Positions 3,737-54,517 of a stretch of 64,000 nucleotides of DNA are shown in pieces. The stretch is from Alphaproteobacteria bacterium. GTDB taxonomy: Bacteria > Pseudomonadota > Alphaproteobacteria > SP197. The notes below the pieces were generated by a model that worked only from the letters and a program-made list of their open reading frames with translations, did no database searches and was not told the origin of the DNA. The stretch covers positions 1,626,832-1,690,831 of the forward strand of contig OZ243917.1 of NCBI GenBank assembly GCA_965213815.1, in the 5' to 3' direction. A program made the translations under genes and the position numbers. Positions within the stretch are counted from its first letter, which is position 1, and each line of letters starts with the position of its first letter.

Positions 3737-3754
3737 TGTTCTCACCATGGTAGC

Positions 3755-19139: not shown

Positions 19140-19140
19140 T

Positions 19141-28096: not shown

Positions 28097-29406
28097 TTAG
28101 GGCTCTCGCCTGAATAACTTGTCCTTTTTGGTGGGATCAGTTATCCCTGCTACCATGGATGGTATGGTTGACACGCTACGCTCCAAGTTTGTGGGGTTGC
28201 GCCCGGTTCTTGACGAACGCGCCCGGCGTTTGTGGGCGGCGACGGAAGCGCGCGCCATCGGGCGCGGCGGCATTGCGAGGGTGGCTGAGGCGACGGGCAT
28301 GTCGCGGGGCACTGTTCGGGCTGGTCTGAAGGAGCTTGCGTCCGGCGTGGTTGCCGAGGCTTCTGGCGAGGCGCCATCGGGGCGTGTGCGTCGACCGGGC
28401 GCCGGGCGCACGCGTGTGACGGAACTGGACCCGGACCTTGTGGTGGCGCTGGAGCGTCAGCTTGAGCCGGTGACGCGCGGTGATCCGGAGAGCCCATTGC
28501 GCTGGACATGCAACAGCGCCGCGCATCTGGCGGACCGGCTTAGGGCCGAGGGTCACCCGGTCAGCGAGCGCACGGTGAACCGGCAGTTGCATGCACTGGG
28601 ATACAGCCTTCAAGCCAACGCCAAGACACTGGAGGGGCGCCAGCATCCGGACCGGGATGCGCAGTTCCGCTGCATCGACCGCCGGGTGCGCGCCTTCCAG
28701 AGGATGGGCCAGCCCGTGGTGTCGGTTGATACCAAGAAGAAGGAAATCGTTGGCCAGTACCGCAATGGCGGCCGTGAATGGCGCCCCAAGGGTGAGCCTG
28801 AGGCCGTGAAGGTGCATGACTTCCCCGATCCGGACCTGGGCAAGGCCATTCCTTACGGGGTGTATGACCTCACCGCCAACGCCGGCTGGGTCAGCGTCGG
28901 CATCGACCACGACACGGCGACATTCGCCGTCGAGACCCTGCGCCGCTGGTGGCAGCACATGGGACACCCGCTCTACCCCGATGCCAGGCGCCTGCTCATC
29001 ACCGCCGACGGCGGCGGCTCCAACAGCAGCCGCAACCGGTTGTGGAAGCTCGAACTCCAGAAACTCGCCGATGAACTCGGACTGACCGTCTCGGTCGCCC
29101 ACTTCCCGCCCGGTACCAGCAAGTGGAACAAGATCGAACACCGCATGTTCTGCCACATCACACAGGACTGGCGCGGCAGGCCCCTCGTCAGCTACCAGGT
29201 GTCGTCAAGCTGATCGCAGCCACTACGACAGGCGCCGGCCTCATCGTACACTCAGACCTCGATGGCAACTCCTATCCGCTCGGGGTCAAGGTCACCGACA
29301 ATCAGATGGAAGACCTTGCCATACGAAGAAACCCCTTCCACGGCGAGTGGAACTACAGTCTGTCACCACGAACATAACGTACAATCTATTTTGGCGAGAG
29401 GCCTTA
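28097..29406 (+). mobile_element. ISAzo13-family insertion sequence, about 1.31 kb, with 14-bp imperfect IRs TTAGGGCTCTCGCC / GGCGAGAGGCCTTA.
   Basis: IRs read from the sequence. Internal ISAzo13-type transposase. Confidence 0.7.
28119..29377 (+). pseudogene. ISAzo13-family transposase. A frameshift near 29210 splits it into 28119..29213 and 29123..29377 (...VVKLIAATTTGAGLIVHSDLDGNSYPLGVKVTDNQMEDLAIRRNPFHGEWNYSL).
   Basis: Family motifs (LDERARRLWAA; C-terminal NPFHGEWNY). Two overlapping ORFs in the track. Confidence 0.6.
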
Positions 29407-30378: not shown

Positions 30379-32589
30379 ATGCCTGACCCACCCCCGTCCA
30401 ATGCCGCAGATCTCCTCGGCACGCCCCGGTTCACGACGCACCAGCCACTCGTTCTGGAGCAGATCGGCGCACATCATGCCTACGCCAGAGGCCTGACCGG
30501 CAGAGGCATCAGGATCGGGATCGACGACACGATCGTCGACTACACGCAGCAGGCCGAGTTCGAAGGCAGGATAGCGCTCACGGCGGCTGACGGCGCGGAC
30601 CTTGCCTACAACCGTCCGGACGGGAACGAGTACTTCAGCCATGTCGGCAACTGCCAGTTCGCCCGAACATGCGACATCTGGCAGGCCGACAGTGCGGGAG
30701 ATCCTGAAGCGGTCAACAACTGGGTGCAGCAGATCGTGGACGAAAACGGGTGGCCCCTCAGGGACGATTCCGTCTTTATCCGGGACGAGCACTACAGCGA
30801 GTCCGACGCTCTTGAACGGCTGTATCGATGGAAGGAGGTGCCAACACCTTATGAAGAAGGCGCCCACGGAACCATCGTGGCTTCAGTCGCGGCCGGGAAG
30901 AACCTCGGTGTGACGCCGGCAGCAACCATCATTCCGGTTGCACAGAATCTCACCGACGACCAGAGAGCGGACATCCTGGCCGACGCCACGGTGCGACAGG
31001 CGATTGCGCTTCTTTCCCCTGCAGACCGACATCAGCTGGATATGCAGTTGGCAAGCGACCAACGGGTCGAGTATGCGAAGTTCGATATCATCAACCGATC
31101 CTACGGGACACCCATCTTCGATCCGGAGGTGGTCTCCAGCGCTGTTGATTCGGAAATGCGATGGTACCGGCGGTACATGCCCCGCTACCTCGATGCCGTA
31201 TTGCAGGTCGACAGGTCTGCCGATGAGAAGACCATTCTTGTTTACGCCGCCGGCAACGAGGCAGAACCCTGGTCCGGTCTGGGAGCGGACCTGCCCTATT
31301 ACATCCCGGAGTTGAGAGGACACTCCCTTGCCGTCGCTGCAACGGATCCGCAAACGGGAGCCATTGCCGAGTATTCCAACCGATGCGGTACCCTTCCGCC
31401 TGACTGGAATGCCGCGAGACACGGCCCGCACTACTGCCTCGCCGCGCCAGGCACGGTCCGGGGCCTCGTGCCGAACCAGAATTCGCCCGGGCAGGGCGAC
31501 GTGGGTGACGGACTGAAGGGAACCAGCTACGCCGCGCCCATGGTTACAGGAGCGCTTGCGCTGATGATGGAGCACTTCCGGGGGACGCGCGGCAACACCG
31601 AGGTCGCGAAGAGGATGCTCGATACGGCGGACCGAAGCGGACGCTACGCCGATCTGGAGGTCTATGGGGCTGGGCACCTCGATCTCGAGGCCGCGCTGGC
31701 GCCCGTCGGCGCGCTGAACGTCGGCCCGTCGGCCCAGGCGATCCACAGCACCGTGTTGCAGACGCCCGCGGCCTTCGGCTCCCTGGCGTCGCGTACCGCC
31801 AGCCTCGAAGTCGCCGCCTTCGACAGCCATGACTTTCCATTCTGGGTTCCGGTATCGGCATTGATTTCAACTCGGACGAGCCAGCATTCTCCCATCCCCG
31901 AGATCGATGAGGCAGCACCCGAGCCAGCCACCGGACTCGACGTTCTCGGCCTCCATTGGACCCCTCTCGCAGACCTCCACAGCAGTGGACCCGCGGCCAA
32001 CCGGAACTGGGTGGCGGGCTTCAATCCGACATCCGCCAGCCTCGCACGCCAGCCCGTGGATGGTGGCTGGGGCTACGGCCTCAGCGTCGATGCAGACAGT
32101 TATCTGGGAGCACGTTCGTCCGGCGCATTCGGATCGGATCTCACCTCCGGCATGATCTGGGCCTCCCACAGCCGCAGCCAGGATCTCCCGAACGGCTGGG
32201 CACTGGAGGCCGCGGGAACGCTGGCGTTCAGCATCCCTGCCTACGAGAGGGACGCGATCTTCCAGGCCTCTCCCTCCGTGCTTTCGTCATTCTCGATGCA
32301 GGTTGGCACGCCCGGGACGCACCTCTCAGTCGAGCAGCCGCTGCGTGCCGAAACGGGTACAGGCACGTTCGTTGTGGATAACGGATGGATAGAGAACGGG
32401 CGCAGGCTCCATGATGAGCACCGCGTTTCGCTCAGTCCCGATGCACGGGAGATGCGCATCACGCTTCGTCACGAGGCAGACGCGGCCGGTGGCCGCATCG
32501 CCCTCAAAATAGGAGGCGCACTCAACTCCGGTCACATTCCAGGCGAGCAGGAAGCGACCACGGGCTTGGCCTGGCGCTTCCTCTGGTAG
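30379..32589 (+). CDS. Subtilisin-like (S8) serine protease autotransporter, NalP-like. Catalytic triad D (GIRIGIDDTIVD), H (HGTIVASVAAG) and S (GTSYAAPMVTG), then a C-terminal beta-barrel ending ...LAWRFLW. The lipoprotein signal peptide is in a different frame upstream (30252-30303); see finding.
   Basis: Motifs in the 736-aa ORF. C-terminal aromatic residue typical of outer-membrane barrels. Confidence 0.7.
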   Translation: MPDPPPSNAADLLGTPRFTTHQPLVLEQIGAHHAYARGLTGRGIRIGIDDTIVDYTQQAEFEGRIALTAADGADLAYNRPDGNEYFSHVGNCQFARTCDIWQADSAGDPEAVNNWVQQIVDENGWPLRDDSVFIRDEHYSESDALERLYRWKEVPTPYEEGAHGTIVASVAAGKNLGVTPAATIIPVAQNLTDDQRADILADATVRQAIALLSPADRHQLDMQLASDQRVEYAKFDIINRSYGTPIFDPEVVSSAVDSEMRWYRRYMPRYLDAVLQVDRSADEKTILVYAAGNEAEPWSGLGADLPYYIPELRGHSLAVAATDPQTGAIAEYSNRCGTLPPDWNAARHGPHYCLAAPGTVRGLVPNQNSPGQGDVGDGLKGTSYAAPMVTGALALMMEHFRGTRGNTEVAKRMLDTADRSGRYADLEVYGAGHLDLEAALAPVGALNVGPSAQAIHSTVLQTPAAFGSLASRTASLEVAAFDSHDFPFWVPVSALISTRTSQHSPIPEIDEAAPEPATGLDVLGLHWTPLADLHSSGPAANRNWVAGFNPTSASLARQPVDGGWGYGLSVDADSYLGARSSGAFGSDLTSGMIWASHSRSQDLPNGWALEAAGTLAFSIPAYERDAIFQASPSVLSSFSMQVGTPGTHLSVEQPLRAETGTGTFVVDNGWIENGRRLHDEHRVSLSPDAREMRITLRHEADAAGGRIALKIGGALNSGHIPGEQEATTGLAWRFLW

Positions 32590-32857: not shown

Positions 32858-33400
32858 GCGTCACGCATTCGGCGAGGTCCTGGTTTGCTTCGATGGGTCA
32901 TGTTTCAAGCAGGAGCGGATTGGCGTGGGAGCGAGGATCGTGTGGGGCAGGAAGTGGCGTGGCCCATTCTTCTTTTCCTTGCATGGCGGCAACCCCCCGT
33001 TTGCGTGCGACTCTATCGCGATGAGGAATGATCAGCGCGCACAGCATCAATTCTTGCATCGCCCGGTGGGGCGCTGCCGGGCCATTGAAGCAAGGGTCCG
33101 GTCTGGGTTTCGCCGGCTCGGAAGATGTCCACGGGGTCATGTTGACGACCGGAGATAGCAGGGGTTAAACTTGACGTGCGGTTGAGGGATCTGACTATGG
33201 CCGTATGCACATCGCAAGAGGCGATTCGCCGGTGAGCCAGGAGAACGGATGTCCTTGTCCTGAGGGGTGTGTCCTTTTTGCAACACGGTCTGAAGGATCG
33301 CCGCTTGACCGGTTGTCCCCCGACGGGGTTAGATAGTTTTGTTTACACACCCGATTCGATTCGGGCCACGCATCATCCTTGCAAGGGAGAAATGTAACCT

Positions 33401-34966
33401 ATGACCAGATTGAACAAACTTACCGCACTTGCGGCAGTTGTGGCCTTGTCGGTCGGGCTTGCTGCGTGTGGCGGTGGGTCGTCATCCACGACCATGATGG
33501 ACACAACTCCGGACCCAGCCGTTGAGCAGAAGATGTCGGCAGAGCAAGCCATTGCAATGGCAAAGGCTGCCGTGGACGCGGTCACCACGAGTGCGACCGA
33601 CGCACAAGTTGCGGCTGCGAATCAGGCCATCGCGGACGCCACGGCCGCAGTTACGGCAGGTACGGCCCTGTCGGCGGCTGACATGACAGCACTCAACGGG
33701 CAGATCGCAGCAATCCAGGGCAATCTCACCCAGCGTTTGGCGGATCGTCAGGCCGTTGCGGATGCGGATGCCATAACCGACAAAGAGAATGCAGAGCAAG
33801 CTGCGGCAGACGCGAAGGCCAGGATTGCATCAGCGAAGGCTCTCGAGGGTGCTATTGCGAGTGCAGCAGCTGTAGCGGACCTCACGGTCTCAATGGATTC
33901 AATTCCTGTGATCACAGATGGCGACGGCACAACCACCGCGATCACGCTTAAGGCAGGTGACGAGGTTGGTTCCCTCGGAGGCTGGATGGGCATGACCCGC
34001 AGCGGCACGGATAGTGAGGAGGATGATGCGAACAGCGGCGAAGCCAGAATCTATACCAACCAAGACGCTGACAAAGTCACCACTCACGCATTTATTAGTG
34101 AAGCCGCTGCGGTTGCACGTACTGGACTGACGATCAACGACGGGGCTGGTGACGTTGACGACGACTACACCGTCGGCCAAGAGGCTCACAAACACATCGA
34201 CAGCCCCAGTTTCCCAATGAGGGGAACAGTAACTTACACCGAAGATGATCGTAAGTTCACTGGCACCTTCAAGGGTGCGTCAGGTACCTATCAGTGCACC
34301 GTCCTCTCGTGCACCGCTGTTTACGGCGAAGAGGGTCTCAGTCTGACAGGAACTTGGACCTTCACACCCGCTGCAGGTGCCATGCTGGATGTCGTCGTAG
34401 AAGACGGTGAATACCTGTACTTTGGATGGTGGGTCCGCAAGGACGACGAGGGAACTCCAACACATGCGGGTGTCCTTTCTGGTGCAGTCGGTGACGATCT
34501 GCCCCCAGCGCCGGGCATCGGCACTGCCGACCTCGTTGGCGAGGCCACTTACACCGGCAAGGCCGCAGGCAAGTTTGCCGTCAGCGACCCGATCAATCCG
34601 GCTAGCGACAACTCCGGCCACTTCACCGCGGATGCTGAGTTGATGGCCGACTTCAAGGATGACGGTGCCACTCTGTCTGGCACTATCGATGCCTTCAGGT
34701 TGAATGATGGTAGCGAGGATGCTGGTTGGAGTGTTGAGTTGAAGGAGGCAACATTCTCCGTCGACACGTTCGCAGCTGGTACAGACGGCACTGTCTGGTC
34801 CGTTGGCGACAACAGCGGCAACGCATCGGGTGAGTGGGAAGCGCAGATGTTCGACGAGGAGACCGATGACGACAGCAATGTCCCAACGACCGTTGTCGGT
34901 AGCTTCATGTCAGATATCGGCACCACACACAGCATGGTCGGCGCGTTCGGTGCCCACGTCGACTGA
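33401..34966 (+). CDS. Surface lipoprotein SLP2 (521 aa; lipobox GLAAC, poly-Gly/Ser linker, TbpB-like C-terminal barrel ending MVGAFGAHVD). It is the expressed copy, with a GGGAGA RBS and an ATG.
   Basis: Signal peptide and lipobox. C-terminal GAFGA motif typical of Slam-dependent surface lipoproteins. Confidence 0.7.
   Translation: MTRLNKLTALAAVVALSVGLAACGGGSSSTTMMDTTPDPAVEQKMSAEQAIAMAKAAVDAVTTSATDAQVAAANQAIADATAAVTAGTALSAADMTALNGQIAAIQGNLTQRLADRQAVADADAITDKENAEQAAADAKARIASAKALEGAIASAAAVADLTVSMDSIPVITDGDGTTTAITLKAGDEVGSLGGWMGMTRSGTDSEEDDANSGEARIYTNQDADKVTTHAFISEAAAVARTGLTINDGAGDVDDDYTVGQEAHKHIDSPSFPMRGTVTYTEDDRKFTGTFKGASGTYQCTVLSCTAVYGEEGLSLTGTWTFTPAAGAMLDVVVEDGEYLYFGWWVRKDDEGTPTHAGVLSGAVGDDLPPAPGIGTADLVGEATYTGKAAGKFAVSDPINPASDNSGHFTADAELMADFKDDGATLSGTIDAFRLNDGSEDAGWSVELKEATFSVDTFAAGTDGTVWSVGDNSGNASGEWEAQMFDEETDDDSNVPTTVVGSFMSDIGTTHSMVGAFGAHVD
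33413..33490 (+). repeat. About 78-bp segment (SLP2 signal-peptide/lipobox codons), about 92% identical in inverted orientation to 41138-41215 at the 5' end of SLP3.
   Basis: Hand alignment found about 6 mismatches over 78 bp. Confidence 0.7.
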
Positions 34967-34989
34967 GTAAGTTCACTTAAGACACACCT

Positions 34990-35025
34990 AAGGCGAGGGC
35001 TGTAGTGGCCCTCGCCTTTCTTCTG
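34990..35025 (+). terminator. Rho-independent terminator: stem AAGGCGAGGGC / GCCCTCGCCTT followed by TCTTCTG.
   Basis: Read directly from the sequence, 24 bp after the SLP2 stop. Confidence 0.6.
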
Positions 35026-35071
35026 CGACTAGACTGCGGTCATTGATTCTTCGTTACGAACGTCCCTGCCG

Positions 35072-35170
35072 TCACGAGATACCACTGAGGGGTCCGGCAA
35101 TCAGAACGGTGAAGGGCAGTAGCATCCAACCGCCGACGAAGAAGATGGTGAAGAGGCTTTTATCATTCAT
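35072..35170 (-). CDS. Possible 32-aa single-TM peptide (MNDKSLFTIFFVGGWMLLPFTVLIAGPLSGIS).
   Basis: C-terminal part of track ORF 35072..35293. Confidence 0.2.
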   Translation of the reverse strand: MNDKSLFTIFFVGGWMLLPFTVLIAGPLSGIS

Positions 35171-35179
35171 CGTTTGGCC

Positions 35180-35560
35180 TGGTCTCTGACCGACGCCGGC
35201 GGTAGAAGTGCAGGAAGATGCACCGGGATGGCTGAGCACCATGACGAAGGCCATCAAATCGCGGTAGCACCGGGTTGCCCCGGTCCCCCGCACAGATTCG
35301 GACAGGCGCTGTTCGCATCCGGCTCTTCCCTCAGGTCTTTAAGACGAGTCGCTGGTTTGGCCACGGGTGGCGGATACTGGCTGTGGGCCAGTGGGCTGCG
35401 GTGAGGAGAACGATGTCCCCCCCATTCAGTGCGATCCCGCTGGGACCGTCGCCGAAGGGCACGCATGAGCAGCCGCTTACTGGTGTATGAACCTCTGCAG
35501 GTCGCGACCGCTCCCGGGGACGGCATAGTAGTTGAGCCGGCCATTGAGGACCCGCCCAAG
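35180..35560 (-). mobile_element. 3' fragment of a group II intron (RT C-terminus ...LLMRALRRRSQRDRTEW... HWPTASIRHPWPNQRLVLKT). It belongs to the same lineage as the fragment at 44104-44850.
   Basis: Similarity between fragments in the two minus-strand ORFs 35254..35637 and 35331..35753 and the 44530..44799 ORF. Confidence 0.4.
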
Positions 35561-36039
35561 CCACTTGGCCGTCTCGTGCCGGTTGTCGTGCCACCGGCGA
35601 AAAATTCCTGCGACACTTGACGGCTATTCTTGGGCATTTGACGGCCGGGATGGTGCCGTATGTGTTCTCTCCCGAGAGTCTACAGGAGCGTTCCCTGTTG
35701 TTGGTTTCGGTAGCTGGCCGGAGGCCAGCGGGATGCGAGCGTAGGCGAGCCATTGTTTTGTTTCAACAGCCGGCTGAACGCGGCGGCTGGCCCCTCACCG
35801 TGGCATGGCCGCCGCGCGTTCCGGGCCTGTGAATGGCGACCCGGCGCCGCAGGCGCCCATGGACCCGGCCGACAGGCCGGGCTCCCTCAGGCGCCGCTGC
35901 CGTCCGGCGGCGGATTGTTTGGCTTGTGCCGGTGCGCAGACATGTCACTGCCCGTTGCCTCAAGAGAGGCCTGGCTTGTTCTGCTGGGTCCGTCCACCGC
36001 CTCCTTTGTGCATGGACGAGAGCCAGGCACCCATCGCCG

Positions 36040-36131
36040 ACGCCGTCCTCGACCGTCTCGTTCACGGCGCCTTCGAGCTGCACGGTACGTCCATGCGCAC
36101 CGACGACGCTGGCGCCGGTACCAAGGCATGA
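36040..36131 (+). pseudogene. istB: About 30-codon C-terminal remnant of an IS21 IstB helper ATPase (...IADAVLDRLVHGAFELHGTSMR...).
   Basis: IstB C-terminal consensus AILDRLLHH..I.GESYR. Confidence 0.35.
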
Positions 36132-36251
36132 GCGCGGTAAGGGAGCGCCGCACCCCGGGGCGCGGCACCTGCGTCGCTGCGCTCCGGGGTGGCTACTTTG
36201 GTGACATCAGGCGGCTACGTTGGTGACATTCGGCATAGTGGAACCGCTTGT

Positions 36252-37625
36252 TCAGAACTGCTGGACGAAGCGCAACTCGCCCGAGGTTCGACTGTAGCCG
36301 TGGAGCTGGGCGTTACTTTCGCGGGTCTCACGGACGACCGCGAGTTCGGGGCTGAACCCCATCAGGTTCAGTGCCCGGTTGTAGGTGGAAAGCCTGTACG
36401 ACCGGGTACGGTCCTCGCGCGGGCCGTTGTCGGCAACGAAGGGAAACCAGCCCCGTTCGTAGTCCGTCCAGCGCATCTCCGCACTGCCGCCGACCGTAAA
36501 GCCCAGGGGAAGGGCAACGGTGATGCCCGTGCCGAGCCACCGGCCACGGTGGCGCTCGTGCCGGGCCTTCGGTCGCTGCTGCGCGTAGCCGGCGGAGACA
36601 TCGGCCCGCACCGTCGGCATGACCACCCACGAGCCGCGCAGGGTCGCATCCCAGACCGGACCATCCAGGCGGGTCCGGGTGCGGTAGCGACGGTCGTGCC
36701 ACGACGTCTGGGCGCTGGCGGTCACCCGCGGGCCCAGCCGGTGGGCGGCCTCGATGCGGACGCCCAGGTCGTGGTAGTCGGGCGTGCTGGACCAGCGCTG
36801 CCGAGCGCTCGCCAAAAGGCTCGCCTCTGTCGAGGCGTCCAGAAGCCAGCGCGGACCGAGATGGAGGGCAACGAAGTGCTGGTCGAAGTCGGAGCGGGCG
36901 TACTCTCGCCGAGATGCCTGCGCGCCGGCGCGGATGCGCAGACTGTCGGAGACCGGCGCCTGGTACTCCGCCCCACCCCAGAACGACAGACCGATGCCCG
37001 ACCTGGTCAGTTCCTCTGCGTCCCGCTCGAACGGAAGGCCGTAGATGATGATGGTGCGCTCGTTTGACGTGCCGCCAATGTTGGTGTCCGGTGCCACCGC
37101 GAAACCCAGATTGAAGCTCCAGCGTTTGCGGGCACGAATCTCGGCAAGAAAGGCGTTGACGTTGCTGGCCACCGCTTCGGGCGGCTCGCCCGCAAGTACG
37201 TGCTCGAAATGCCGCAGGGCGAGTTCGTCCTCACCTTTCAGGAAGAAGGCGCGGGCCAACTCCAGGCGCACCCGCACCAAGTTCGGATCGTGAACCAGCA
37301 TGGTGTGGAAGGCGGCGATCGCCTCATTCAGCAAAGCGTCGCGCTCCTCCTCGGTACGCCCGGGGCGCTGAGCCGCCCCGACGGCGGCGAGGCCGTAGAG
37401 AAAGAGCGTATTGGGTTCGACCGCTTCCCCGAGGAGCAGGGGCTGCAAAAGGCCAAAAGCATCTTCGAACCGTCCGGCGTCGATCAACTCCTGCGGGCTT
37501 GCCGCCTCGACCGCGTCCGCGGCGTCGGAGGACTGCGCCCCGGCGTGGTGAGCGGAGAGCAGGGCGAAGAGGAGACAGGCGGCGAGCGCCAAGGTGCGGT
37601 AGGGCGATGCGGAAGCAGAGAGCAT
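36252..37625 (-). CDS. Slam (surface lipoprotein assembly modulator)-type outer-membrane translocator. Signal peptide, periplasmic TPR region, and a C-terminal DUF560 14-strand barrel (...RALNLMGFSPELAVVRETRESNAQLHGYSRTSGELRFVQQF). Start is ATG 37625 with an AAGAGG RBS.
   Basis: Domain architecture and C-terminal motif. It is co-located with TbpB-like lipoproteins. Confidence 0.75.
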   Translation of the reverse strand: MLSASASPYRTLALAACLLFALLSAHHAGAQSSDAADAVEAASPQELIDAGRFEDAFGLLQPLLLGEAVEPNTLFLYGLAAVGAAQRPGRTEEERDALLNEAIAAFHTMLVHDPNLVRVRLELARAFFLKGEDELALRHFEHVLAGEPPEAVASNVNAFLAEIRARKRWSFNLGFAVAPDTNIGGTSNERTIIIYGLPFERDAEELTRSGIGLSFWGGAEYQAPVSDSLRIRAGAQASRREYARSDFDQHFVALHLGPRWLLDASTEASLLASARQRWSSTPDYHDLGVRIEAAHRLGPRVTASAQTSWHDRRYRTRTRLDGPVWDATLRGSWVVMPTVRADVSAGYAQQRPKARHERHRGRWLGTGITVALPLGFTVGGSAEMRWTDYERGWFPFVADNGPREDRTRSYRLSTYNRALNLMGFSPELAVVRETRESNAQLHGYSRTSGELRFVQQF

Positions 37626-37639
37626 TGTGCCTCTTGGCA

Positions 37640-39620
37640 GGAACGGCGACATCGGTGACATCACAACGAGGTGATCAGGATAGGGAGGAGAGCCGCGCGG
37701 CTCCACTTCTCTCACACCACCGAGTGTACGGGTCTGTACCCGGCAGTTCAACGGATTTGAGCTGTGGCATGGTTCGCGAACGGGACGAGGCCAGGCCGGG
37801 TGAAGAAGGCGTTGAGCAGTGCACAGAAAAGCACGGGGCCGTTGCTGAGCCACCATGGACCATGGGCACCGCCGGCAGTTTTCGTTACCAGATGCTTGTT
37901 GACACTGAGGCCGCGCAACGCAACGAAGCGTGTGCGTCCGCGCTTCCTTTGCCGCCAGACGATGGCACGAAGCCTCCGACTGACCCATCGGTCGAGGCGG
38001 TGCGGCACCAAGGGGTTTCGCAGAAGTCGAAGTAGCCCGGCGTTCCGACGAGGTAGCGAGTCAGCTCCGTAACGAAGTGAACGAGACTGACGCTCCTCAA
38101 ACAGCGCGTCAGTGCCCGGATCCGCGTCTTGAGCCGGGCAAGCTCCGGCTGCGGCGTGATGCGCCGCCTGGGTGTCCGCTCGGCCGTGAAGCCGAAGCCC
38201 AGTGATGCCTGCGCCGACGCCCGGCCAACAGCGCTCTTGTCTGTGTTCATCGTCAGCTTGAGCCGCCGGGCGAGGAAGTCGGTCACGCTCGCCATGACTC
38301 GCTCGCCCGCTGAGACAACAGGTAGATGCTGCAGTCGTCGGCGCAGCGCACAAAGCGGTGGCCGCGCTTCTCCAACTCCTTGTCCAGAACGTCGAGCATC
38401 AGATTCGACAGAATCAGCGAGAGCGGCCCAACCTGCGGGACTCCCTCGGTCATTGGGCCAACAGCCCACCTTCCAGAACGCTCGCGGTCAGGAAGTCGCG
38501 GATCAGCCTGATCAAGCGTTTGTCGGCCACCAGACCCATCAGAACGTCGTGATTGACCCGGTCGAAGAACTTTTCGAGATCAAGATCGACCACGATACCG
38601 AAGACCGCGCTGATATGATCCTGCGCGCACTTGACCGCTTGATGGGCTGAGCGTCCGGGCCAGAACCCGTGGCTCGCGTCTGAGAGGGTGGGAGCCCAGG
38701 TCCCCCTGCAGCACCTGCATCACCGCCTGCTGGATGAAGCGGTCGAGCACCGTTGGTACACCGAGCGGACGAATCCCGCCTGATGCCTTCGGTATCTGTA
38801 AACGCCGCACCGGCTTCGGGGTGTAGGCACCATCAAGAAGCCGGGACGTGATCTCAGGCCAATGGCTCTTCAGGTGGTCATCCAAGTCATCGACGGTCAC
38901 ATCGTCGATACTGGGCACCCCTTGTTGCGGTGGACACGCGCCAGCGCCTTCCGCAAATTGCCGGGCTGGATCACCGCCTCCATCGACGGTCCCTGCCCGG
39001 CCGCAGGGCGTTCGGGCTCGACGCGCGATGCAGACTTCGGTCCCCTGGCGTCCGACGCTCCGGGCTTCACCCTTCGCCGCCGACACCAAGGCCAGTTCCA
39101 GCTGGATTTTCTGTCGCCGGGGCCTCATGAGCGTGCCGTCCTGGCAACCCTGTCCATCGTTCAGGCCTTCACCAGAGAGCCGGCTACTAAGCCTTCTGCT
39201 GACTTCTGCGCCGCAATCACGGCCCTTGCGGAACCGCTCAGCCGGGAACTTCCGAACACGGCGCAGACCCCAAGGTTGAGACCAACCGCCTTCACCGCAC
39301 TCCCGTCGGATTTGCCACCCCGACCCTTGATGGCTCTGGGCTTCGCAATCATTGGCCCGCTCGTCCGGCCGGGTAGGCCTCGTATCCGGTTCTTGTTCAT
39401 CGGATCGCGGCTTTGCTCCACACTTCCTTCAATCACCGCCTCGCGACGACGCCCTTGCGTTTCGCTGATCCTTCGCCGCCATCGGGCTGGGATAGAGGAC
39501 TTGCATCTCCAAGCTGTCGATCATGCTCGGCACACAAAGAGAGGGTGGCACGCAGTGCCACCCTCCTCAAGTCCGACCCAAGTAGTCTGGAACCTGTCGC
39601 AAGGTCCCAGACCAATCAGA
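37640..39620 (-). mobile_element. Degenerate group II intron between SLP3 and the Slam gene. The RT/maturase is broken into at least three frames (38580..39128, 37885..38469, 37748..38353), and the YADD region is lost.
   Basis: RT motifs LLDGAYTPKPVRRLQIPKASGGIRPLGVPT, FLARRLKLTMNTDKSAV and RLRAIVWRQRKRGRTRFVALRGLSV in separate frames. Confidence 0.6.
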
Positions 39621-39629
39621 CGGTAACTC

Positions 39630-41215
39630 CTATTCTTCTTCCTTGACCCTAGCGCCGAAGGCACCGGCCACCGAGCCATCGCTGAACACGGCACCAAACT
39701 CGCCGACCACGGAGCCCGGATGGGGAGCGACACCTTCGACGGCCGTCACGTCCCCATGGAACGTCGCGCTGAAATCGCCGACATCGTCGTCGCCCACCAT
39801 GGTGTTGCCGGACGCTGTGCCTTCAGCCGCATCGATATCACCATCCAGAGCCGCAGACCAACTGTTCTCCTCATCGCCCGACAACATGAAGTTGCTGACC
39901 ATGCCAGTGAGAGTGTTCAGCAGGTTCTCAGCAATGGTGCCCGTGTCGTCACCATCGGAAACCGGAACCTGACCGAAGGTTGCCTTCAGGTTGACGGTTG
40001 CATGGAAGTCGCCGGAACTACGGTCAATGACGTCACCCGTGGAGGAATCATACTCATTGTTCATCGTGTACACGCCAACTGCGCCACCGCTGTACTCGGC
40101 GCTTCCCGTGACACTGGCAACACTTCCGCTTGTCTGAGCCGACGAACCGGCGAAGGTCTCGACCTCGTTATACGTGACCATATCGTCTGCATCCTCTGTC
40201 TTCTGAAGCCAGAAGCCATAGTGCAGGTAGTCATACTGCGGCTGAGGTGACTCGGCACCCATGGCAGGGGTGAACACCCAACCGGTGCCAACTGCGGAGA
40301 TCTCTCCCATTGCATCATATGTGACTTGGCATCGACTAGTACCGGTGCACCGATAGGTGCCCGGTGCGCCGTTGTAGGTGCCTTCGGTTTCGAAGGCCTC
40401 GTCCATATCCGCAGTATCACTATCGTCAAAGGCATAGGTCAGATCACCAGCCCCACTGGACGAAAACCCACTCGCCATGATCTGCGCGACATTGGCAGTT
40501 ATGACATTCAGAGCCGTGTAGTCGTTGGTCATGTTACCGTCACCATCGGTGCCGTCCATGTTTTCATCAAGGTCACGGGCGTTCAGCATCTGAGGCATAT
40601 CTGTTGTTGTCGATGTGCCGTCATCAGATACGGTTACGAGTTCGAAGTCCGCGAACGACACCATTGTTGGTGCGTCACGGTCATTGTAGACGATCGCGAC
40701 TTCTGTCACCACGTTTCCGTCGTCGTCAGCATCATGCATGCGAGTGTGCATGGTGCGGCCATCCATCATGTCCTCAGCCAAATCGAACATGACATCATCT
40801 TTGTCGGTAGCTTCCACGGTGATCGAAACCTTCGTGCCATCTTCATCAATGGCAAGGGTGTAACCTATCACCGGCGTGCCATCGGTCATGGAGCCGCCAA
40901 GCCCAGCATCCGCATGCATTTCAGTGGTCCCCAGACCTCCCTGGGCGGCCTCCGCGGCGATGGCCGTTGCTTTCGTGCCAGCCGCCTTGGTTGTCGCAGC
41001 TAACTCCGCGGCCTCTTCTGCGGCCACATCCTCGGCGCTCGTGCAGGATCCGTCGGTTTCATAGCGGCCCATCGCCATCTCGCATTCTTGTTGCGCGGTC
41101 AGCTCTGGCTCCGGCTCCGGCTCCGGCATAGCCGTCTTGGACGACCCGCCACCGCACGCAGCAAGCCCGCCCGACAGGGCCACGACTGCCGCAAGTGCGG
41201 TAAGTTTGTTTAACG
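39630..41215 (-). CDS. Surface lipoprotein SLP3, a paralogue of SLP2. The body is intact (TbpB-like C-terminus ...GSVAGAFGARVKEEE). The signal-peptide codons (TLNKLTALAAVVALSGGLAAC) are present, but no ATG/GTG/TTG start codon or RBS precedes them (TGCACGTTAAAC in place of ATGACCAGATTGAAC). It is a silent copy or a start-codon pseudogene.
   Basis: Hand translation upstream of track ORF 39630..41183. An in-frame stop lies 14 codons upstream, with no start codon between. Confidence 0.6.
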
Positions 41216-41356
41216 TGCAAGTGGCTTCTGTGGTAGCGTCCGTAGCCGATGGCCTTCAACAGGGGATCCTTCGGCGGACGCGCCATGTCCGCACCATCGC
41301 CAGAAGGCCTTCGACAGTCGGTCGGGAATGCAAGTTCCCGGCAATCCGGAGTTGTC

Positions 41357-42298
41357 ATGACCATCCCATCCGTCCCTGCCCTCGAGGCTCTCCCAGCGGA
41401 GCGCAATCCGGCGATCGTTTACCTCGCAAGTCTGACTGCCGGTGAGGGACGGCGCTCGATGGCCTCGACGCTCTCTCAGCTCGCCGCCATGCTCGGTTGT
41501 AGTGATGCTGCGTCCTGCCCCTGGCACGAGCTGCGCCATCAGCACGTCGCTGCCCTTCGTGCTGTGCTGGCCGAGCGCTACGCGCCAGCCTCGGCGAACA
41601 AGGCCCTCGCCGCGATCCGCGGTGTACTCCGGGCGGCCTGGAGGCTGGAACTGATCCCGACCGAGTCCTATCACCGCGCCATCGACGTGCCGCTCGTCCG
41701 CGGCGCGCGCCTGCCTGCCGGCCGGTCCCTCGAGCCCGCCGAGATCCGGGCGCTGTTTTCCGCTTGTGCCGATGGCACCCCGGCCGGCGCCCGCGACGCC
41801 GCCGCCTTCGCCCTGCTGTTCGGCTGCGGCCTGCGCCGCGCCGAAGCGGTTGCAGTGGAGGTTGCCGACCACCACGCAGACACTGGCGCGATTCGAGTCA
41901 TCGGCAAGGGCAACCGCGAGCGAATCGTCTACGCTACCGGCGGTGCGAAGGCAGCCCTCGATGCTTGGCTGGCTCACCGCGGAGTCGCCGTGGCCGGCCC
42001 GATTCTCGCTCCGGTGTCGCACACCGGCGCCGTCGATGTCGGTCGCGGCATCACCCCGAATTCGCTGATGATGCGTCTGCGCAAGCGGTCCGAACAAGCC
42101 GGAATTGCCGCGTGCTCGCCGCACGACCTCCGCCGCTCGTTCGTGTCGGCAGCCCTTGAGGCCGGAGCCGATCTTGCCATGGTCCAGGCTCTTGCAGGCC
42201 ACGCCTCCCCGACCACAACCGCGCGTTACGACCGCCGCCCTGAATCTGCCAAGGCTGCCGCTGCGCGTCTTGTCCACGTTCCGTTTGCTGCGGTGTGA
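41357..42298 (+). CDS. Tyrosine site-specific recombinase, XerC/XerD-like (about 313 aa; RRAEAV ... HDLRRSF ... TTARYDR). It is divergent from SLP3.
   Basis: R-K-H-R-H-Y signature residues in the 349-aa ORF. The start is probably MTIPSVP. Confidence 0.7.
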   Translation: MTIPSVPALEALPAERNPAIVYLASLTAGEGRRSMASTLSQLAAMLGCSDAASCPWHELRHQHVAALRAVLAERYAPASANKALAAIRGVLRAAWRLELIPTESYHRAIDVPLVRGARLPAGRSLEPAEIRALFSACADGTPAGARDAAAFALLFGCGLRRAEAVAVEVADHHADTGAIRVIGKGNRERIVYATGGAKAALDAWLAHRGVAVAGPILAPVSHTGAVDVGRGITPNSLMMRLRKRSEQAGIAACSPHDLRRSFVSAALEAGADLAMVQALAGHASPTTTARYDRRPESAKAAAARLVHVPFAAV

Positions 42299-44103: not shown

Positions 44104-44850
44104 ATGGCGATCATTGTTCGCTATGCGGACGATATTGCGGTCGGGTTCCAGTACAAGCGGGATGCGGAGCAGTACCTCCGCGACGTTCGGGAGAGGCTGG
44201 AGTGCTTCGGCCTCGGCCTTCACCCGGACAAGACCCGTCTCGTGGAGTTCAGGCGGTTCGCGGCTGCGAACCGTCGCAGTCGTGGGGCGGGCAGGCCGGA
44301 AACATTCGACTTCCTGGGCTTCACGCACTTCTGCACGACGACCCGGCGATGCCGCTTTCCGCTTGGTCGCAAACCGGTCGCGAAAAGGGTCAACAGGACT
44401 CTGGCGCGCATCGAGGAGGTTCTTCGCGAATGTTGGCATCACGACATCTGGGAGGTCGGGAAGTGACTGGGGCAAGTCTATCAGGGCTGGCTCAACTACT
44501 TCCCCGTCCCGGGGTCGGGCTGGTGGCTCATGACGTTCCGCCGCCGGCTGCAACGCTTGTGGATGCGGACGCTACGCCGTCGGTCCCGGCGAGACCGCTC
44601 CAACTGGAAGCGATTGGCGCGCATGGCCGAAGTCCTTTGGCCACACACGACGATCCGCCACCCATGGCCGGACCAACGGTTCGCCGTCAAACACCCGGGG
44701 CAGGAGCCGGATGGATTACCGTCCAAGTCCGGATTTGTGCGGGGGGGGGGCCGGGTAACCGGCATTCCTACCGCGACTGGGGAAGGGGTTCAGGAATGAC
44801 CCCTTCTACCCGGCCACTGTCACGCGCCGATGTCCTTGGCACCAGGTGCT
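44104..44850 (+). mobile_element. 5'-truncated group II intron 3' fragment. The RT starts at the YADD motif (MAIIVRYADDIAVG...LHPDKTRLVEF...FDFLGFTH), has a frameshift at 44466, then the maturase C-terminus (...WMRTLRRRSRRDRSNWKRLARM...) and domains V/VI.
   Basis: ORFs 44104..44466 and 44530..44799. Confidence 0.55.
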
Positions 44851-45063: not shown

Positions 45064-46563
45064 CTACCGCAACTCGCCTCCAAAGGCGGCGGTGAGATCG
45101 TCGCGCTCCAGAACACCAGCTACAGCCTCGTGCCCTGGTCCGAAGAATCCGCCGTCCAGAACACCGGAGTCGTCGTTTGGTGCAGGGCGGTAATTCCCGA
45201 AGGTATCGCCATAACCTGTGTTCACTTGGATCGTGTAGTGCAGGTCGCCATCGCCCCACATAGTTCCTGTTCCCGGGTCCGATGGTTGACCTGCCCAGGA
45301 CTCCAGGCTCGTGAAGTCCACAGTTCCGTCAAGGTCAGCAAGATCAAGGGACATATCTGCATCGCCCATGACCGATCGGGCTGAGGGTGTGAAACCGACC
45401 AGCATTCCCGCCCAGCTCGCACTCCCCGACAGTCGGGGGTTGTCCCATATCCACGTCAGAGGCTCTGGACCCACCGCCCATGGCATGGCGCGGCCGTTCA
45501 TCAGACGCACGCCGAAGAGCGTGACATCCTCGGAGAGCAGACTGTCCGGACGATTCGGCACTGCCAACCCACCGAAGATATGGGTTGCCGTGTTGTCCCA
45601 CGGCCCGAGGTCGGATGCCAGTCCGACCGAAGTCGTGCCCGGTTGGAGTCTGCCGTAGGTGGCCAGCAACATCTCTTGGTCCAGCTGCGACAGCACGAAC
45701 GGGAGGCTGTTGTAGCTGTATGACATGATCGTGTCCGTGCGCCCGTAGAGTGGGACCGGATGCTCGCGGCCGAGGGAATGCAGAATCTCATGGACGAGCG
45801 TGTCCTCCATCTGGATCGCGCCACTCTCGACGTGTAGGTGCTGAGGGTGCGCGGGGTTGATCCAGATCGGAGCGGACCGGATTGAACCGTCCGGATTGGG
45901 ATCCCTTCTCCACGATGCGCCAAGCGTTGCCATGCTCGTTTGTTCCTGCCAAGTGGCAGGCCATTGGCTGCGGGGCGCGAACGTGATGAATATCTCGCCC
46001 AGGGCTTCGGTATTGCTACCTGCTGGCGCAGGCTGGGGGTCGAAGCCCACCTGCCAATCGCCCGGCAGGGCCGTGTTGATCATCTGGACCGCGTACTGCA
46101 CAGCCCCGATCAGATCGTCGGGAGTGCCGTGGGCCACCCTCACGGTTGGCGGCGCGATCCAGCGATCCAGATAACCCACGCCCTCCCGTATGTCGTCCTG
46201 CAATTCCGAAAGAAGGGTGCTGCGTCCGACGCCAGGACTGTCGATCCCATAGACAATCTCGATGCCGTCATATGTGCCGACAGCCGCGCCGACGGCCGAT
46301 CCGGGACGGATAATCGCATCGCCGCCGATGAAGTAGTAACCGGGCAAATCACTCCCCTCGATTACGGAAAGGTCGGTGTAGGGGAAGCCGGTTGGCGATT
46401 GACTGGCGGCCGTTGGAACGGTCGGTTTCATCGACTGTGGGGGCGCAACGGGCGTCGTGGGCCCCGTCGTCGACATGTTCATGGCGGACATGCCGCCTCC
46501 GCCACCTCCACAAGAGGCAATCAACAGCGTGGCGACGAAAGCCGCGATCATTCGCAATGTCAT
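45064..46563 (-). CDS. Surface lipoprotein with a metzincin zinc-metallopeptidase domain (HEILHSLGREH = HExxHxxGxxH; Met-turn IMSY). Lipobox LLIASC followed by poly-Gly. C-terminal SLP-type barrel (...LTAAFGGELR).
   Basis: Motifs in the 499-aa ORF. Confidence 0.65.
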   Translation of the reverse strand: MTLRMIAAFVATLLIASCGGGGGGMSAMNMSTTGPTTPVAPPQSMKPTVPTAASQSPTGFPYTDLSVIEGSDLPGYYFIGGDAIIRPGSAVGAAVGTYDGIEIVYGIDSPGVGRSTLLSELQDDIREGVGYLDRWIAPPTVRVAHGTPDDLIGAVQYAVQMINTALPGDWQVGFDPQPAPAGSNTEALGEIFITFAPRSQWPATWQEQTSMATLGASWRRDPNPDGSIRSAPIWINPAHPQHLHVESGAIQMEDTLVHEILHSLGREHPVPLYGRTDTIMSYSYNSLPFVLSQLDQEMLLATYGRLQPGTTSVGLASDLGPWDNTATHIFGGLAVPNRPDSLLSEDVTLFGVRLMNGRAMPWAVGPEPLTWIWDNPRLSGSASWAGMLVGFTPSARSVMGDADMSLDLADLDGTVDFTSLESWAGQPSDPGTGTMWGDGDLHYTIQVNTGYGDTFGNYRPAPNDDSGVLDGGFFGPGHEAVAGVLERDDLTAAFGGELR

Positions 46564-54390: not shown

Positions 54391-54517
54391 ACCAGTGGGC
54401 GTATACGCTATATTAACTATCTGTTAACGTGCTTATAATGCTCCCTGCACAATTGCAATGTCGGGAGGTGCATCATCGGATCTTCCCATGCCTGCAATTT
54501 CAGCGAAGGGAGGACCC

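What the first reader, a model, noticed from the sequence alone, without database searches (positions are those of the whole stretch)
33413..41215. SLP2 and SLP3 share inverted 5' ends; SLP3 has lost its start codon and sits next to an XerD-like recombinase
The signal-peptide coding regions of SLP2 (33413-33490, +) and SLP3 (41138-41215, -) are about 92% identical inverted repeats, 7.7 kb apart. The bodies are diverged paralogues. SLP2 has an RBS and an ATG. In SLP3 the corresponding ATGACCAGATTG is TGCACGTTA, with no alternative start, so SLP3 is currently silent. A tyrosine recombinase gene (41357-42298) is divergently adjacent. Recombination between the repeats, whether homologous or recombinase-mediated, would invert the 7.7-kb segment that also carries Slam. 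It would place the SLP3 body behind the SLP2 expression signals. That would be a second, lipoprotein-level variation switch. Note that the alignment does not run through the start codon itself.
Basis: partly seen in the sequence, partly recalled or inferred. Interest (0 to 1): 0.6.

Follow-up and report, generated by a model that had tools for sequence, protein, structure and literature searches.

The report
Invertible surface-lipoprotein expression-site switch
One surface-lipoprotein gene has a promoter and start codon, a second intact copy 7.7 kb away in opposite orientation has neither, and the two share a short inverted repeat next to a recombinase gene, so flipping the DNA between them would swap which protein the bacterium displays; related genomes share this design, but the flip itself has not been seen.

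Summary
33413-33485 (+) and 41210-41138 (-) are an inverted repeat. The first 26 nt are identical and 65 of 71 nt match overall; shuffled sequence gives no such match. Homology starts abruptly at codon 5 of the signal peptide.

SLP2 has a conserved ~270-nt leader, an RBS and ATG ACC AGA TTG. SLP3 has an in-frame stop upstream and no start before GTG 41183, which would leave only 9 residues ahead of the lipobox cysteine.

Related alphaproteobacterial MAGs show the same design:
- One expression site (ES) lies downstream of an S8 peptidase.
- One to three start-less cassettes are always inverted relative to the ES.
- A 313-aa tyrosine recombinase (86-96% identical, full RKHRHY catalytic set) sits divergently beside a start-less junction in 10 of 11 cases.

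Start-less cassettes keep 500-codon ORFs under purifying selection (dN/dS 0.25-0.31). Body lineages alternate between ES and start-less contexts. A relative has exactly the arrangement predicted after inversion.

I read this as a Mycoplasma vsa-like or Bacteroides susC-shufflon-like inversion switch for Slam-dependent surface lipoproteins. Inversion was not observed directly, because only one assembly of this genome exists. The recombinase is not a true XerD. I rate it a new variant of a known kind.

The parts
30379..32589 (+). S8 subtilase gene, the conserved upstream neighbour of the expression site
   Evidence: PF00082, E 4.5e-28. An S8 orthologue of 77-89% identity, or a fragment of one, lies upstream of the ES in L004, L018-L021, L023-L025 and L027.
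33130..33400 (+). Expression-site leader: ~270 nt of non-coding DNA with promoter-like hexamers, GGGAG RBS and an ATG-TAA mini-ORF
   Evidence: Nearly invariant across six genomes, more conserved than the coding DNA around it. One promoter-like match, TTGACG-18-TAAACT, at 33142-33171. No Rfam family matches.
33401..33412 (+). ES-specific first four codons, ATG ACC AGA TTG (M T R L)
   Evidence: Present only at ES copies; absent from every start-less copy.
33413..33485 (+). Repeat copy at the ES (candidate recombination site). 33413-33438 is identical to the partner. It encodes NKLTALAAVVALSVGLAACGGGS
   Evidence: Contains the imperfect dyad ACTTACCGCA-CT-TGCGGCAGT.
33401..34966 (+). SLP2, the currently expressed surface lipoprotein (521 aa)
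   Evidence: ORF with ATG. Lipobox LAAC and C-terminal barrel motifs.
34967..36251 (.). Spacer inside the invertible segment with no recognisable gene
   Evidence: No Pfam hits for its ORFs. 35606-35913 is 81% identical to L001 4988-5298, which lies beside an IS21-type element.
36252..37988 (-). Slam (surface lipoprotein assembly modulator) outer-membrane translocon gene; true start uncertain
   Evidence: PF04575 SlipAM, E 3.4e-21, plus TPR. Its 5' part overlaps the frames of the intron RT remnant.
37546..39450 (-). Degraded group II intron between SLP3 and Slam: frameshifted RT pseudogene plus ribozyme domains
   Evidence: tblastn with the L018 RTs gives three frames. Rfam RF02001 at 39281-39450 (115 bits) and RF01998 at 39164-39240. 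TIGR04416 fragment.
39540..39566 (-). Terminator-like hairpin just after the SLP3 stop codon
   Evidence: 12-bp stem with 8 GC pairs, followed by CTTTGTGT.
39630..41213 (-). SLP3, an intact but start-less surface-lipoprotein cassette (527 codons from the junction)
   Evidence: Open frame with no start. AlphaFold2 model pLDDT 83.8, with top PDB matches fHbp, TbpB and HphA. dN/dS 0.25-0.31 against start-less orthologues.
41138..41210 (-). Repeat copy at the start-less cassette. 41185-41210 is identical to the ES copy
41211..41356 (.). Recombinase-side flank between the junction and the recombinase ATG; replaces the ES signals and contains the in-frame TGA
   Evidence: Homologous flank in L026, L031, L032 and L033.
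41357..42298 (+). Tyrosine recombinase (313 aa), the candidate invertase
   Evidence: PF00589. R-K-H-R-H-Y all present when aligned to XerD 1a0p. 86-96% identical copies sit beside start-less junctions in eight other loci. dN/dS 0.12-0.15.

Best explanation
**What it is.** The locus looks like an expression-site (ES) switch for Slam-dependent surface lipoproteins.

**How it is built.**
- Only one place in the locus carries expression signals. This is the ES: the conserved leader, the RBS and the first four codons (33130-33412).
- Each lipoprotein body begins with the same ~73-nt stretch encoding the rest of the signal peptide and the lipobox.
- SLP2 is currently joined to the ES.
- SLP3 is complete from codon 5 onward. 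It lies in inverted orientation, and its 5' end abuts the upstream region of a tyrosine recombinase gene, so it is silent.

**How it would work.**
- Recombination between the two inverted copies inverts 33413-41210.
- The crossover is most likely recombinase-catalysed and falls within the first ~13-26 nt (AACAAACTTACCG...).
- Inversion fuses MTRL in frame to the SLP3 body, followed by Slam, and parks the SLP2 body beside the recombinase.
- The cell would then display a different surface lipoprotein.

**Shown:** the geometry, the missing start, the intact recombinase, conservation of the design, and selection on silent cassettes.

**Inferred:** that inversion actually occurs, that this recombinase catalyses it, and where the crossover lies.
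For: 1. **Repeat and junction.** establish the repeat and its sharp 5' edge.
2. **SLP3 has no start.**
3. **The same two junction types recur.** The ES flank and the recombinase flank meet the repeat at the same nucleotide in the window, L001, L002, L004, L018, L022 and L025-L033.
4. **Orientation.** Wherever an ES and start-less copies share a contig they are inverted: window 1/1, L004 3/3, L027 1/1, L030 1/1.
5. **Recombinase adjacency.** Ten of the eleven recombinase copies of 85-96% identity examined lie divergently next to a start-less junction. These are the window copy, L001 829, L004 twice, L022, L026, L027, L031, L032 and L033. The eleventh, at the right end of L028, is separated from its junction by a transposase gene. 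The two loci with only an ES (L018, L002) have neither a start-less copy nor this recombinase within 21 kb.
6. **Selection on silent cassettes.** Start-less SLP3 orthologues in three genomes keep ~525-codon ORFs. Their dN/dS is 0.25-0.31 at dS 0.8-1.1, no higher than for ES-linked pairs at 0.34-0.39.
7. **Context switching.** On a tree of bodies, ES and start-less contexts are interspersed. Examples are L022 silent with P0013 ES at 69%, and L028 silent with L027 ES at 64%.
8. **ES N-terminus on SLP3-type bodies.** Database proteins carry the full MTRLNKLT... N-terminus on SLP3-type bodies (P0039, P0049, P0013). Others are called from the internal GTG (P0001, P0002, P0032).
9. **Sequence exchange within genomes.** The two copies share 92 identical nt in L027 and at least 68 in L025/L026. 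In L030 both copies carry the variant ACAAAACTTACCG.
10. **The predicted flipped state exists.** L018 has S8 -> ES::SLP3-type -> group II intron -> Slam.
11. **The recombinase looks active.** It has all six catalytic residues and is under purifying selection.
12. **A further break at the same boundary.** In L032 a second copy of the recombinase flank is joined to unrelated DNA within 1-2 nt of the same boundary.
Against: - No assembly or read shows this genome, or any single strain, in both orientations. The exact chimeric proteins are absent from a 15-billion-protein collection, and the source genome is represented by one contig.
- All four members of the SLP3 clade examined are in the start-less context. 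This fits rare switching or a long-fixed state.
- No convincing symmetrical core site is visible, only a short imperfect dyad.
- In L030 the two copies differ at 4 positions in the dyad centre.
- Some cassettes are decaying: L001 829, L004 9324, and IS or transposon insertions in L001 and L031.
- In L027 and L028 the recombinase flank happens to supply an in-frame GTG or ATG. There, 'silent' cassettes might be translated in place.
Confidence: 0.65

Rival explanations
1. The same switch operates, but inversion occurs by general homologous (RecA-type) recombination across the ~73-nt repeat. The neighbouring recombinase has another role. This would resemble the Campylobacter fetus sap system (recalled from memory).
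For: - No clear two-arm core site is visible.
- Tracts of 68-92 identical nt within some genomes look like gene-conversion or homologous exchange rather than fixed-point crossover.
- Downstream polymorphisms (V-type vs G-type signal peptide) occur in both contexts.
Against: - Perfect identity is only 26 nt in the window and 13-15 nt in L030. That is at or below the length usually needed for efficient RecA exchange (established knowledge).
- The homology edge is identical to the nucleotide in all copies.
- The recombinase is next to the junction in 10 of 11 cases and is absent where there is no start-less cassette.
Confidence: 0.12
2. The arrangement is a fossil. An ancient inversion or insertion cut SLP3 off from its start. 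The arrangement has simply been inherited, SLP3 is a dead gene, and nothing switches today.
For: - The SLP3 clade is start-less in all four genomes seen.
- Several cassettes are visibly degraded or interrupted by IS elements.
- The locus is littered with group II intron and IS remnants.
- No two-state evidence was found.
Against: - The ~525-codon ORFs are intact in three lineages at dS ~1, with dN/dS 0.25-0.31. This equals the expressed copies and is not expected for dead genes.
- Contexts are interspersed on the body tree.
- Repeats are homogenised within genomes, and the variant in L030 is shared by both copies.
- The recombinase is strongly conserved.
Confidence: 0.13
3. SLP3 is expressed where it is, by an unrecognised start. 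Candidates are GTG 41183, a near-cognate codon, or a frameshift from the out-of-frame ATG at ~41276. On this reading it is not silent.
For: - An ATG-initiated ORF in another frame runs through the junction and is conserved in L026.
- In L027 and L028 in-frame GTG or ATG codons lie 8-9 codons upstream of the junction.
Against: - GTG 41183 would leave 9 residues with no positive charge before the lipobox Cys and has no RBS.
- In-frame stops lie 3-14 codons upstream in the window, L001 and L004.
- The upstream flanks differ between genomes, so no shared start or slippery context exists.
Confidence: 0.05
4. Silent cassettes donate sequence to the ES by non-reciprocal gene conversion, as in the pilE/pilS or vlsE systems, rather than by inversion.
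For: Start-less cassettes and a single ES are also the hallmark of gene-conversion systems. Homogenised 5' tracts are seen.
Against: - SLP2 and SLP3 share no second block of DNA homology at or beyond their 3' ends to resolve a conversion tract.
- Cassettes are full-length genes with their own stop codon and terminator.
- Strict inverted orientation is not needed for conversion, but it is needed for inversion without deletion.
Confidence: 0.05

Closest known systems
Mycoplasma pulmonis vsa locus with HvsR tyrosine recombinase
   Same: - There is a single expression site carrying the promoter, RBS and 5' coding end.
- Silent lipoprotein genes lack their 5' end.
- Site-specific inversion at a site inside the coding region joins the ES to another body.
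- The recombinase gene lies beside the locus (as summarised in PMC2268961).
   Different: - The vsa ES contributes 714 nt of coding sequence; here it contributes only 12 nt.
- The organism is a Gram-negative alphaproteobacterium, not a mollicute.
- The substrates are Slam-exported, TbpB/fHbp-fold proteins.
- There is no sequence relationship in the site, and none in the recombinase beyond the superfamily.
- Inversion is not demonstrated here.
Mycoplasma agalactiae vpma / M. bovis vsp loci with Xer1 / Mbr
   Same: A family of variable surface lipoproteins, one promoter, an adjacent tyrosine recombinase, and inversions that place silent genes behind the promoter (PMC2268961).
   Different: - The vpma and vsp sites lie in the 5' UTR (-1 to -72), so silent genes are complete ORFs.
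- Here the site is inside the signal-peptide coding region, and silent genes lack their start codon.
Bacteroides thetaiotaomicron BT1032-BT1053 susC shufflon with tyrosine recombinase BT1041
   Same: - It is a Gram-negative outer-membrane system.
- Two genes are truncated at their 5' ends relative to one full-length copy.
- A tyrosine recombinase gene sits within the locus.
- Recombination occurs within the 5' ends and was narrowed to a 7-bp crossover (bioRxiv 10.1101/521070).
   Different: - The substrates there are TonB-dependent transporters and their operons, not lipoproteins with a shared signal peptide.
- The phylum, the recombinase and the site are all different.
- That system is experimentally shown; this one is not.
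R64 shufflon (Rci recombinase, sfx sites)
   Same: These are inversion-only systems in which homology between sites begins at the crossover region, and only one arm is conserved. That would explain the one-sided homology edge seen here. This point is recalled from memory and was not tested.
   Different: - Rci swaps the 3' ends of pilV.
- No similarity of this recombinase to Rci was tested.
- The asymmetric-site idea is an inference only.

Membership tests
Expression-site inversion systems for surface proteins (vsa/vpma/susC-shufflon kind) | One copy carries the expression signals; other family members lack a promoter and/or 5' end | tested here: met
   The ES leader, RBS and ATG are found only at 33130-33412. 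SLP3 has no start. The same holds in 7+ related loci.
Expression-site inversion systems for surface proteins (vsa/vpma/susC-shufflon kind) | Short conserved repeats at the 5' end of each member, in inverted orientation relative to the ES | tested here: met
   All 6 start-less copies that share a contig with an ES are inverted relative to it.
Expression-site inversion systems for surface proteins (vsa/vpma/susC-shufflon kind) | Dedicated site-specific recombinase encoded in or beside the locus | tested here: met
   Gene 41357-42298 is PF00589 with an intact catalytic hexad. Ten of the eleven copies examined lie directly beside a start-less junction.
Expression-site inversion systems for surface proteins (vsa/vpma/susC-shufflon kind) | Both orientations detectable in a population, and dependent on the recombinase | not testable with these tools
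   No reads are available. The exact chimeric proteins are not in the collection, and there is only one assembly of the source genome.
Slam-dependent surface lipoproteins | N-terminal lipobox | tested here: met
   L-A-A-C is present in SLP2 and, after the junction, in SLP3.
Slam-dependent surface lipoproteins | C-terminal eight-stranded barrel / TbpB-like fold (PMC5449769) | tested here: met
   SLP3 AlphaFold2 model has pLDDT 83.8. Top Foldseek PDB hits are fHbp, TbpB, hemophilin and HphA, at probability about 1.0 and E down to 2e-5. SLP2 was not modelled, but it shares the C-terminal motifs.
Slam-dependent surface lipoproteins | Gene adjacent to a Slam (DUF560/SlipAM) gene | tested here: met
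   Slam lies at 36252-37988, PF04575 E 3.4e-21. SLP-Slam adjacency is seen in all related loci.
Slam-dependent surface lipoproteins | Surface display requires Slam | not testable with these tools
   This needs a translocation assay.
XerD / XerC chromosome-dimer resolvases | Score above the equivalog cut-off of TIGR02225 / TIGR02224 | tested here: not met
   113 bits against a cut-off of 330 for XerD, and 124 against 335 for XerC. Similarity is at superfamily level only.
Integron integrases | Score above the TIGR02249 cut-off; cassette array at an attI next to intI | tested here: not met
   53 bits against a cut-off of 265. The expressed copy is not the one next to the recombinase, and the repeats are inverted rather than direct.
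FimB/FimE-type tyrosine DNA invertases | Score above the NF007371 cut-off | tested here: not met
   20 bits against a cut-off of 222.

The most novel reading that the evidence does not exclude
A lineage of uncultured, probably sponge-associated Alphaproteobacteria has a dedicated and so far undescribed tyrosine invertase. It shuffles whole Slam-dependent surface-lipoprotein bodies onto a four-codon expression site. The crossover lies at a one-sided site inside the signal-peptide coding sequence. This would be the first DNA-inversion antigenic or phase variation system for Slam substrates, and a vsa-type system outside the mollicutes.
Probability: 0.5. Interest if true: 0.7.

Novelty: new variant of a known kind. 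Interest (0 to 1): 0.62.

Why it matters
Slam-dependent lipoproteins such as TbpB, fHbp and HpuA are major host-interaction and vaccine antigens. In the papers I searched, no DNA-inversion variation system is described for them.

If this switch is real, it has three consequences:
- Symbionts vary their exposed lipoprotein coat by whole-gene swapping. That bears on how they evade host recognition or phages.
- It gives a compact recombinase-plus-site pair to test, with a minimal shared core of 13-26 nt inside a signal peptide.
- It warns annotators that start-less, 'truncated' lipoprotein genes next to recombinases are functional cassettes rather than pseudogenes.

Tried and rejected
- **Two-state evidence, protein look-up.** I looked up the predicted post-inversion proteins by exact sequence: MTRL+SLP3, and SLP2 called from its internal GTG. 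Neither is in the collection, and SLP2, SLP3 and the recombinase each occur on one 3.85-Mb contig.
- **Two-state evidence, metagenome scan.** A scan with the degenerate site found only 4 contigs. An ES contig (L025) and a start-less contig (L026) come from one metagenome, but the ES contig ends inside the repeat, which is uninformative.
- **Two contigs with an identical recombinase.** L032 and L033 turned out to be about 5% diverged in DNA. L032 is a rearranged, largely deleted locus, not the opposite orientation.
- **Alternative starts for SLP3.** I considered in-frame upstream codons, GTG 41183 and the out-of-frame ATG ORF. All were rejected as unlikely.
- **Integron-like model.** Rejected. 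The expressed copy is not beside the recombinase, the repeats are inverted, and the IntI cut-off is not met.
- **Integrative-element origin.** Rejected as a current explanation. Integration gives direct repeats, and the genes on the far side of the recombinase are conserved chromosomal neighbours across species.
- **Gene conversion.** Rejected because there is no 3' homology block.
- **Known RNA element in the ES leader.** Rfam gave no hit there, and the RNAalifold covariation term was negligible.
- **Same design with other signal peptides.** The P0120 context and L013 showed ordinary starts, with no recombinase in the P0120 neighbourhood.
- **'orf254' (38862-39626 +).** Rejected as a gene. 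It is the antisense frame of the intron RT remnant.


Full report
**1. The observation**

The two 5' regions are a true inverted repeat.
- The repeat finder reports arms at 33410-33518 and 41105-41213.
- blastn of the window against itself gives 33413-33483 vs 41210-41140, 91.5% over 71 bp, E 6e-21.
- The first 25 bases, AACAAACTTACCGCACTTGCGGCAG, occur exactly twice in 64 kb, on opposite strands. They occur zero times in 100 shuffles.
- A pairwise alignment with 300-nt flanks shows no similarity upstream. Identity starts abruptly at AAC, codon 5. There are 26 identical bases, then six mismatches up to position 63, five of them synonymous. Similarity is lost after about position 73.

SLP2 (33401-34966, +) reads MTRLNKLTALAAVVALSVGLAAC..., with GGGAG 11 nt before its ATG.

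In the SLP3 frame (minus strand) a TGA lies 14 codons upstream of the junction. No ATG, GTG or TTG follows until GTG 41183. That start would leave M-ALSGGLAA before the lipobox cysteine, with no charged N-region and no RBS. The recombinase gene is at 41357-42298 (+).

**2. What the genes are**

- Slam (36252-37988, -) matches PF04575.
- SLP3 was modelled with AlphaFold2 from a 51-sequence alignment and gave pLDDT 83.8. Its best PDB matches are fHbp, TbpB, hemophilin and HphA, all Slam-dependent lipoproteins. This fits the family definition of lipobox, C-terminal eight-stranded barrel and Slam adjacency in PMC5449769.
- SLP2 and SLP3 are not alignable by BLASTP beyond residue ~60. They share the C-terminal barrel motifs.
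- Between SLP3 and Slam lies a degraded group II intron, with ribozyme domains at 39164-39450 and a frameshifted RT. A strong hairpin at 39540-39566 follows the SLP3 stop codon.
- The recombinase is a PF00589 protein. It scores far below the XerC, XerD, IntI and invertase family cut-offs. It aligns to XerD (1a0p) with Arg, Lys, His, Arg, His and Tyr all in place.

**3. Related loci**

Loci were retrieved through Slam, through SLP3 homologues, through recombinase cluster members and through the site pattern. All come from uncultured Alphaproteobacteria MAGs or metagenomes. The contig and bin names suggest sponge samples. That association is my inference and was not checked.

Twenty distinct copies of the repeat fall into two classes.
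- **ES copies.** These are the window copy, L002, L004, L018, L025, L027, L029 and L030. Each is preceded by the same leader...CCTTGCAAGGGAGAAATGTAACCT ATG ACC AGA TTR. The leader is nearly invariant for ~270 nt across six genomes. It usually lies downstream of the orthologous S8 peptidase.
- **Start-less copies.** These are the window copy, L001 (two), L004 (three), L022, L026, L027, L028 (two), L030, L031, L032 and L033. They begin their homology at the same nucleotide but are preceded by unrelated sequence, with in-frame stops in the window, L001 and L004.

Wherever an ES and start-less copies share a contig, they are inverted relative to each other. This holds in the window, in L004 for three cassettes, in L027 and in L030.

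Ten of the eleven recombinase copies of 85-96% identity that I examined lie divergently beside a start-less junction. The eleventh, at the right end of L028, is separated from its junction by a transposase gene. The two loci with only an ES, L018 and L002, have no such recombinase and no start-less copy within 21 kb.

L018 is among the closest relatives I found (S8 88.5% identical, Slam 85.6%). It has S8 -> ES::SLP3-type -> group II introns -> Slam. That is exactly the ES-side arrangement the window would have after inversion.

**4. Are the start-less cassettes alive?**

- The window's SLP3 and its start-less counterparts in L001 and L027 keep ~525-codon ORFs at dS 0.8-1.1. Their dN/dS is 0.25-0.31. 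ES-linked pairs give 0.34-0.39. Dead genes would not stay open or show this constraint.
- In a tree of bodies, ES and start-less contexts are interspersed. L022 silent pairs with P0013 ES at 69%. L028 silent pairs with L027 ES at 64%. L030 silent groups with the L002 and L004 ES bodies.
- In the protein database, SLP3-type bodies occur with the full MTRLNKLT... N-terminus (P0039, P0049, P0013, P0053, P0115). They also occur as calls from the internal GTG (P0001, P0002, P0032).
- The recombinase is under strong purifying selection, with dN/dS 0.12-0.15. Between the window and L027 it is much less diverged at synonymous sites (dS 0.35) than the adjacent SLP bodies (dS 0.95). The cassettes therefore turn over faster than the recombinase.

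**5. Where the crossover might be**

- Within genomes the two copies are often identical over long tracts: 92 nt in L027 and at least 68 nt in L025/L026. In L030 they share only 13-15 nt, and both copies carry the variant ACAAAACTTACCG in place of AACAAACTTACCG.
- The segment identical in every putatively active pair is the first 13 nt at the homology edge.
- The repeat contains an imperfect dyad, ACTTACCGCA-CT-TGCGGCAGT, which the terminator scan also picks up as a hairpin. Its centre differs between the L030 partners.
- In L032 a second copy of the recombinase flank is joined to unrelated S8-downstream DNA within 1-2 nt of the same edge. This suggests another breakage-rejoining event at that point.
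- I infer a crossover in or next to AACAAAC, with one conserved arm. This recalls the one-sided sfx sites of the R64 shufflon, which I cite from memory. It is an inference, not a result.

**6. Mechanism, with status of each step**

Shown:
- There is a single set of expression signals.
- The inverted repeats are in frame.
- SLP3 lacks a start.
- The adjacent recombinase is intact and conserved.
- The architecture is conserved across genomes.
- The silent cassettes are under selection.

Inferred:
- The recombinase inverts 33413-41210.
- This yields MTRL-SLP3, followed by Slam, behind the ES promoter.
- It also silences SLP2 beside the recombinase.

Slam is separated from SLP3 by a terminator and intron debris. 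It presumably has its own promoter, since SLP2 export needs it in the present orientation (inference).

**7. Comparison with known systems**

- The closest is the Mycoplasma pulmonis vsa system. There an ES with promoter, RBS and the first 714 nt is joined by site-specific inversion to 5'-truncated silent lipoprotein genes, and hvsR lies nearby.
- The vpma and vsp systems differ in having their sites in the 5' UTR (PMC2268961).
- In Gram-negatives the closest is the B. thetaiotaomicron BT1032-1053 shufflon. It has 5'-truncated susC genes, a locus-encoded tyrosine recombinase and a 7-bp crossover (10.1101/521070).
- Full-text searches found no inversion system for Slam substrates.
- This is therefore the known principle with new parts: a new recombinase lineage, a new site inside a signal peptide, an ES contribution of only 12 coding nt, Slam-dependent substrates, and symbiotic Alphaproteobacteria as hosts.

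**8. Limits**

- No direct two-state evidence could be found.
- The SLP3 clade is start-less in all four genomes seen.
- Some cassettes are decaying.
- The switch may therefore be rare, conditional or, in some lineages, defunct.

I put 0.65 on a working recombinase-driven inversion switch and 0.12 on the same switch by homologous recombination. I put 0.13 on a fossil, and about 0.05 each on in-place expression and on gene conversion.

Noticed in passing
window 53416-58148: Two divergent porin-type genes (53416-54390 -, 57111-58148 + PF13609) flank two tandem, overlapping tyrosine recombinase genes (54458-55642, 55639-56772). Their 5' ends form an 85-bp inverted repeat, 54314-54398 vs 57160-57244, 86% identical. 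L022 1-4600 has the same porin-Int-Int-porin layout. This may be a second inversion module for porins.
   Followed up: partly
window 33130-33400: The expression-site leader is almost invariant for ~270 nt across six genomes, more conserved than the neighbouring coding DNA. It contains a conserved ATG-TAA 'start-stop' mini-ORF 3 nt before the real ATG. There is no Rfam match and little covariation, and its function is unknown.
   Followed up: partly
window 1716-5751: A 2021-bp tandem duplication, 99.8% identical (1716-3736 / 3732-5751). Each copy carries a group II intron RT/maturase gene (1934-3568, 3949-5583).
   Followed up: partly
window 37546-39450 (-): A degraded group II intron sits just downstream of the SLP3 terminator hairpin. 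L018 has two intact intron RT genes at the same position between SLP and Slam. The 254-aa ORF at 38862-39626 (+) is the antisense frame of the RT and is spurious. The annotated 5' part of Slam overlaps RT-derived frames, so the true Slam start is uncertain.
   Followed up: partly
window 45064-46563 (-): A further lipoprotein with its own signal peptide (MTLRMIAAFVATLLIASC), an HEILH zinc-protease-like motif and a weak Slam-lipoprotein C-terminal match (NF041636, E 1e-4). It is not part of the repeat system.
   Followed up: no
L032 9440-10010: A rearranged relative. The S8 gene is internally deleted and the SLP/Slam segment is missing. Two direct copies of the recombinase flank bracket a 135-nt SLP 5' fragment. 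The first copy is joined to unrelated DNA within 1-2 nt of the usual junction.
   Followed up: partly
L028 1-12259: Two start-less junctions with identical recombinase-type flanks face each other. One has a recombinase gene directly beside it; the other is separated from its recombinase gene by a transposase gene. No ES lies between them. The interior is interrupted by IS110-, IS21- and Mutator-type transposases.
   Followed up: no
L027 10445-10460 (-): In this genome the ES start codon reads ATA instead of ATG. The TTG three codons later may serve as the start. The ES and start-less copies are identical over 92 nt.
   Followed up: no
window 35513-35566 and 44461-44514: A 54-nt inverted repeat of 74% identity, with weak tblastx similarity over ~250 nt between 35.3-35.6 kb and 44.4-44.7 kb. 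The ORFs there have no Pfam hit. It remains unexplained.
   Followed up: partly
window 19140-19233 and 28097-28190: A 94-bp direct repeat of 98% identity covering the 5' end of an ISAZ013-family transposase gene (28119-29213). The copy at 19.1 kb is a fragment.
   Followed up: no
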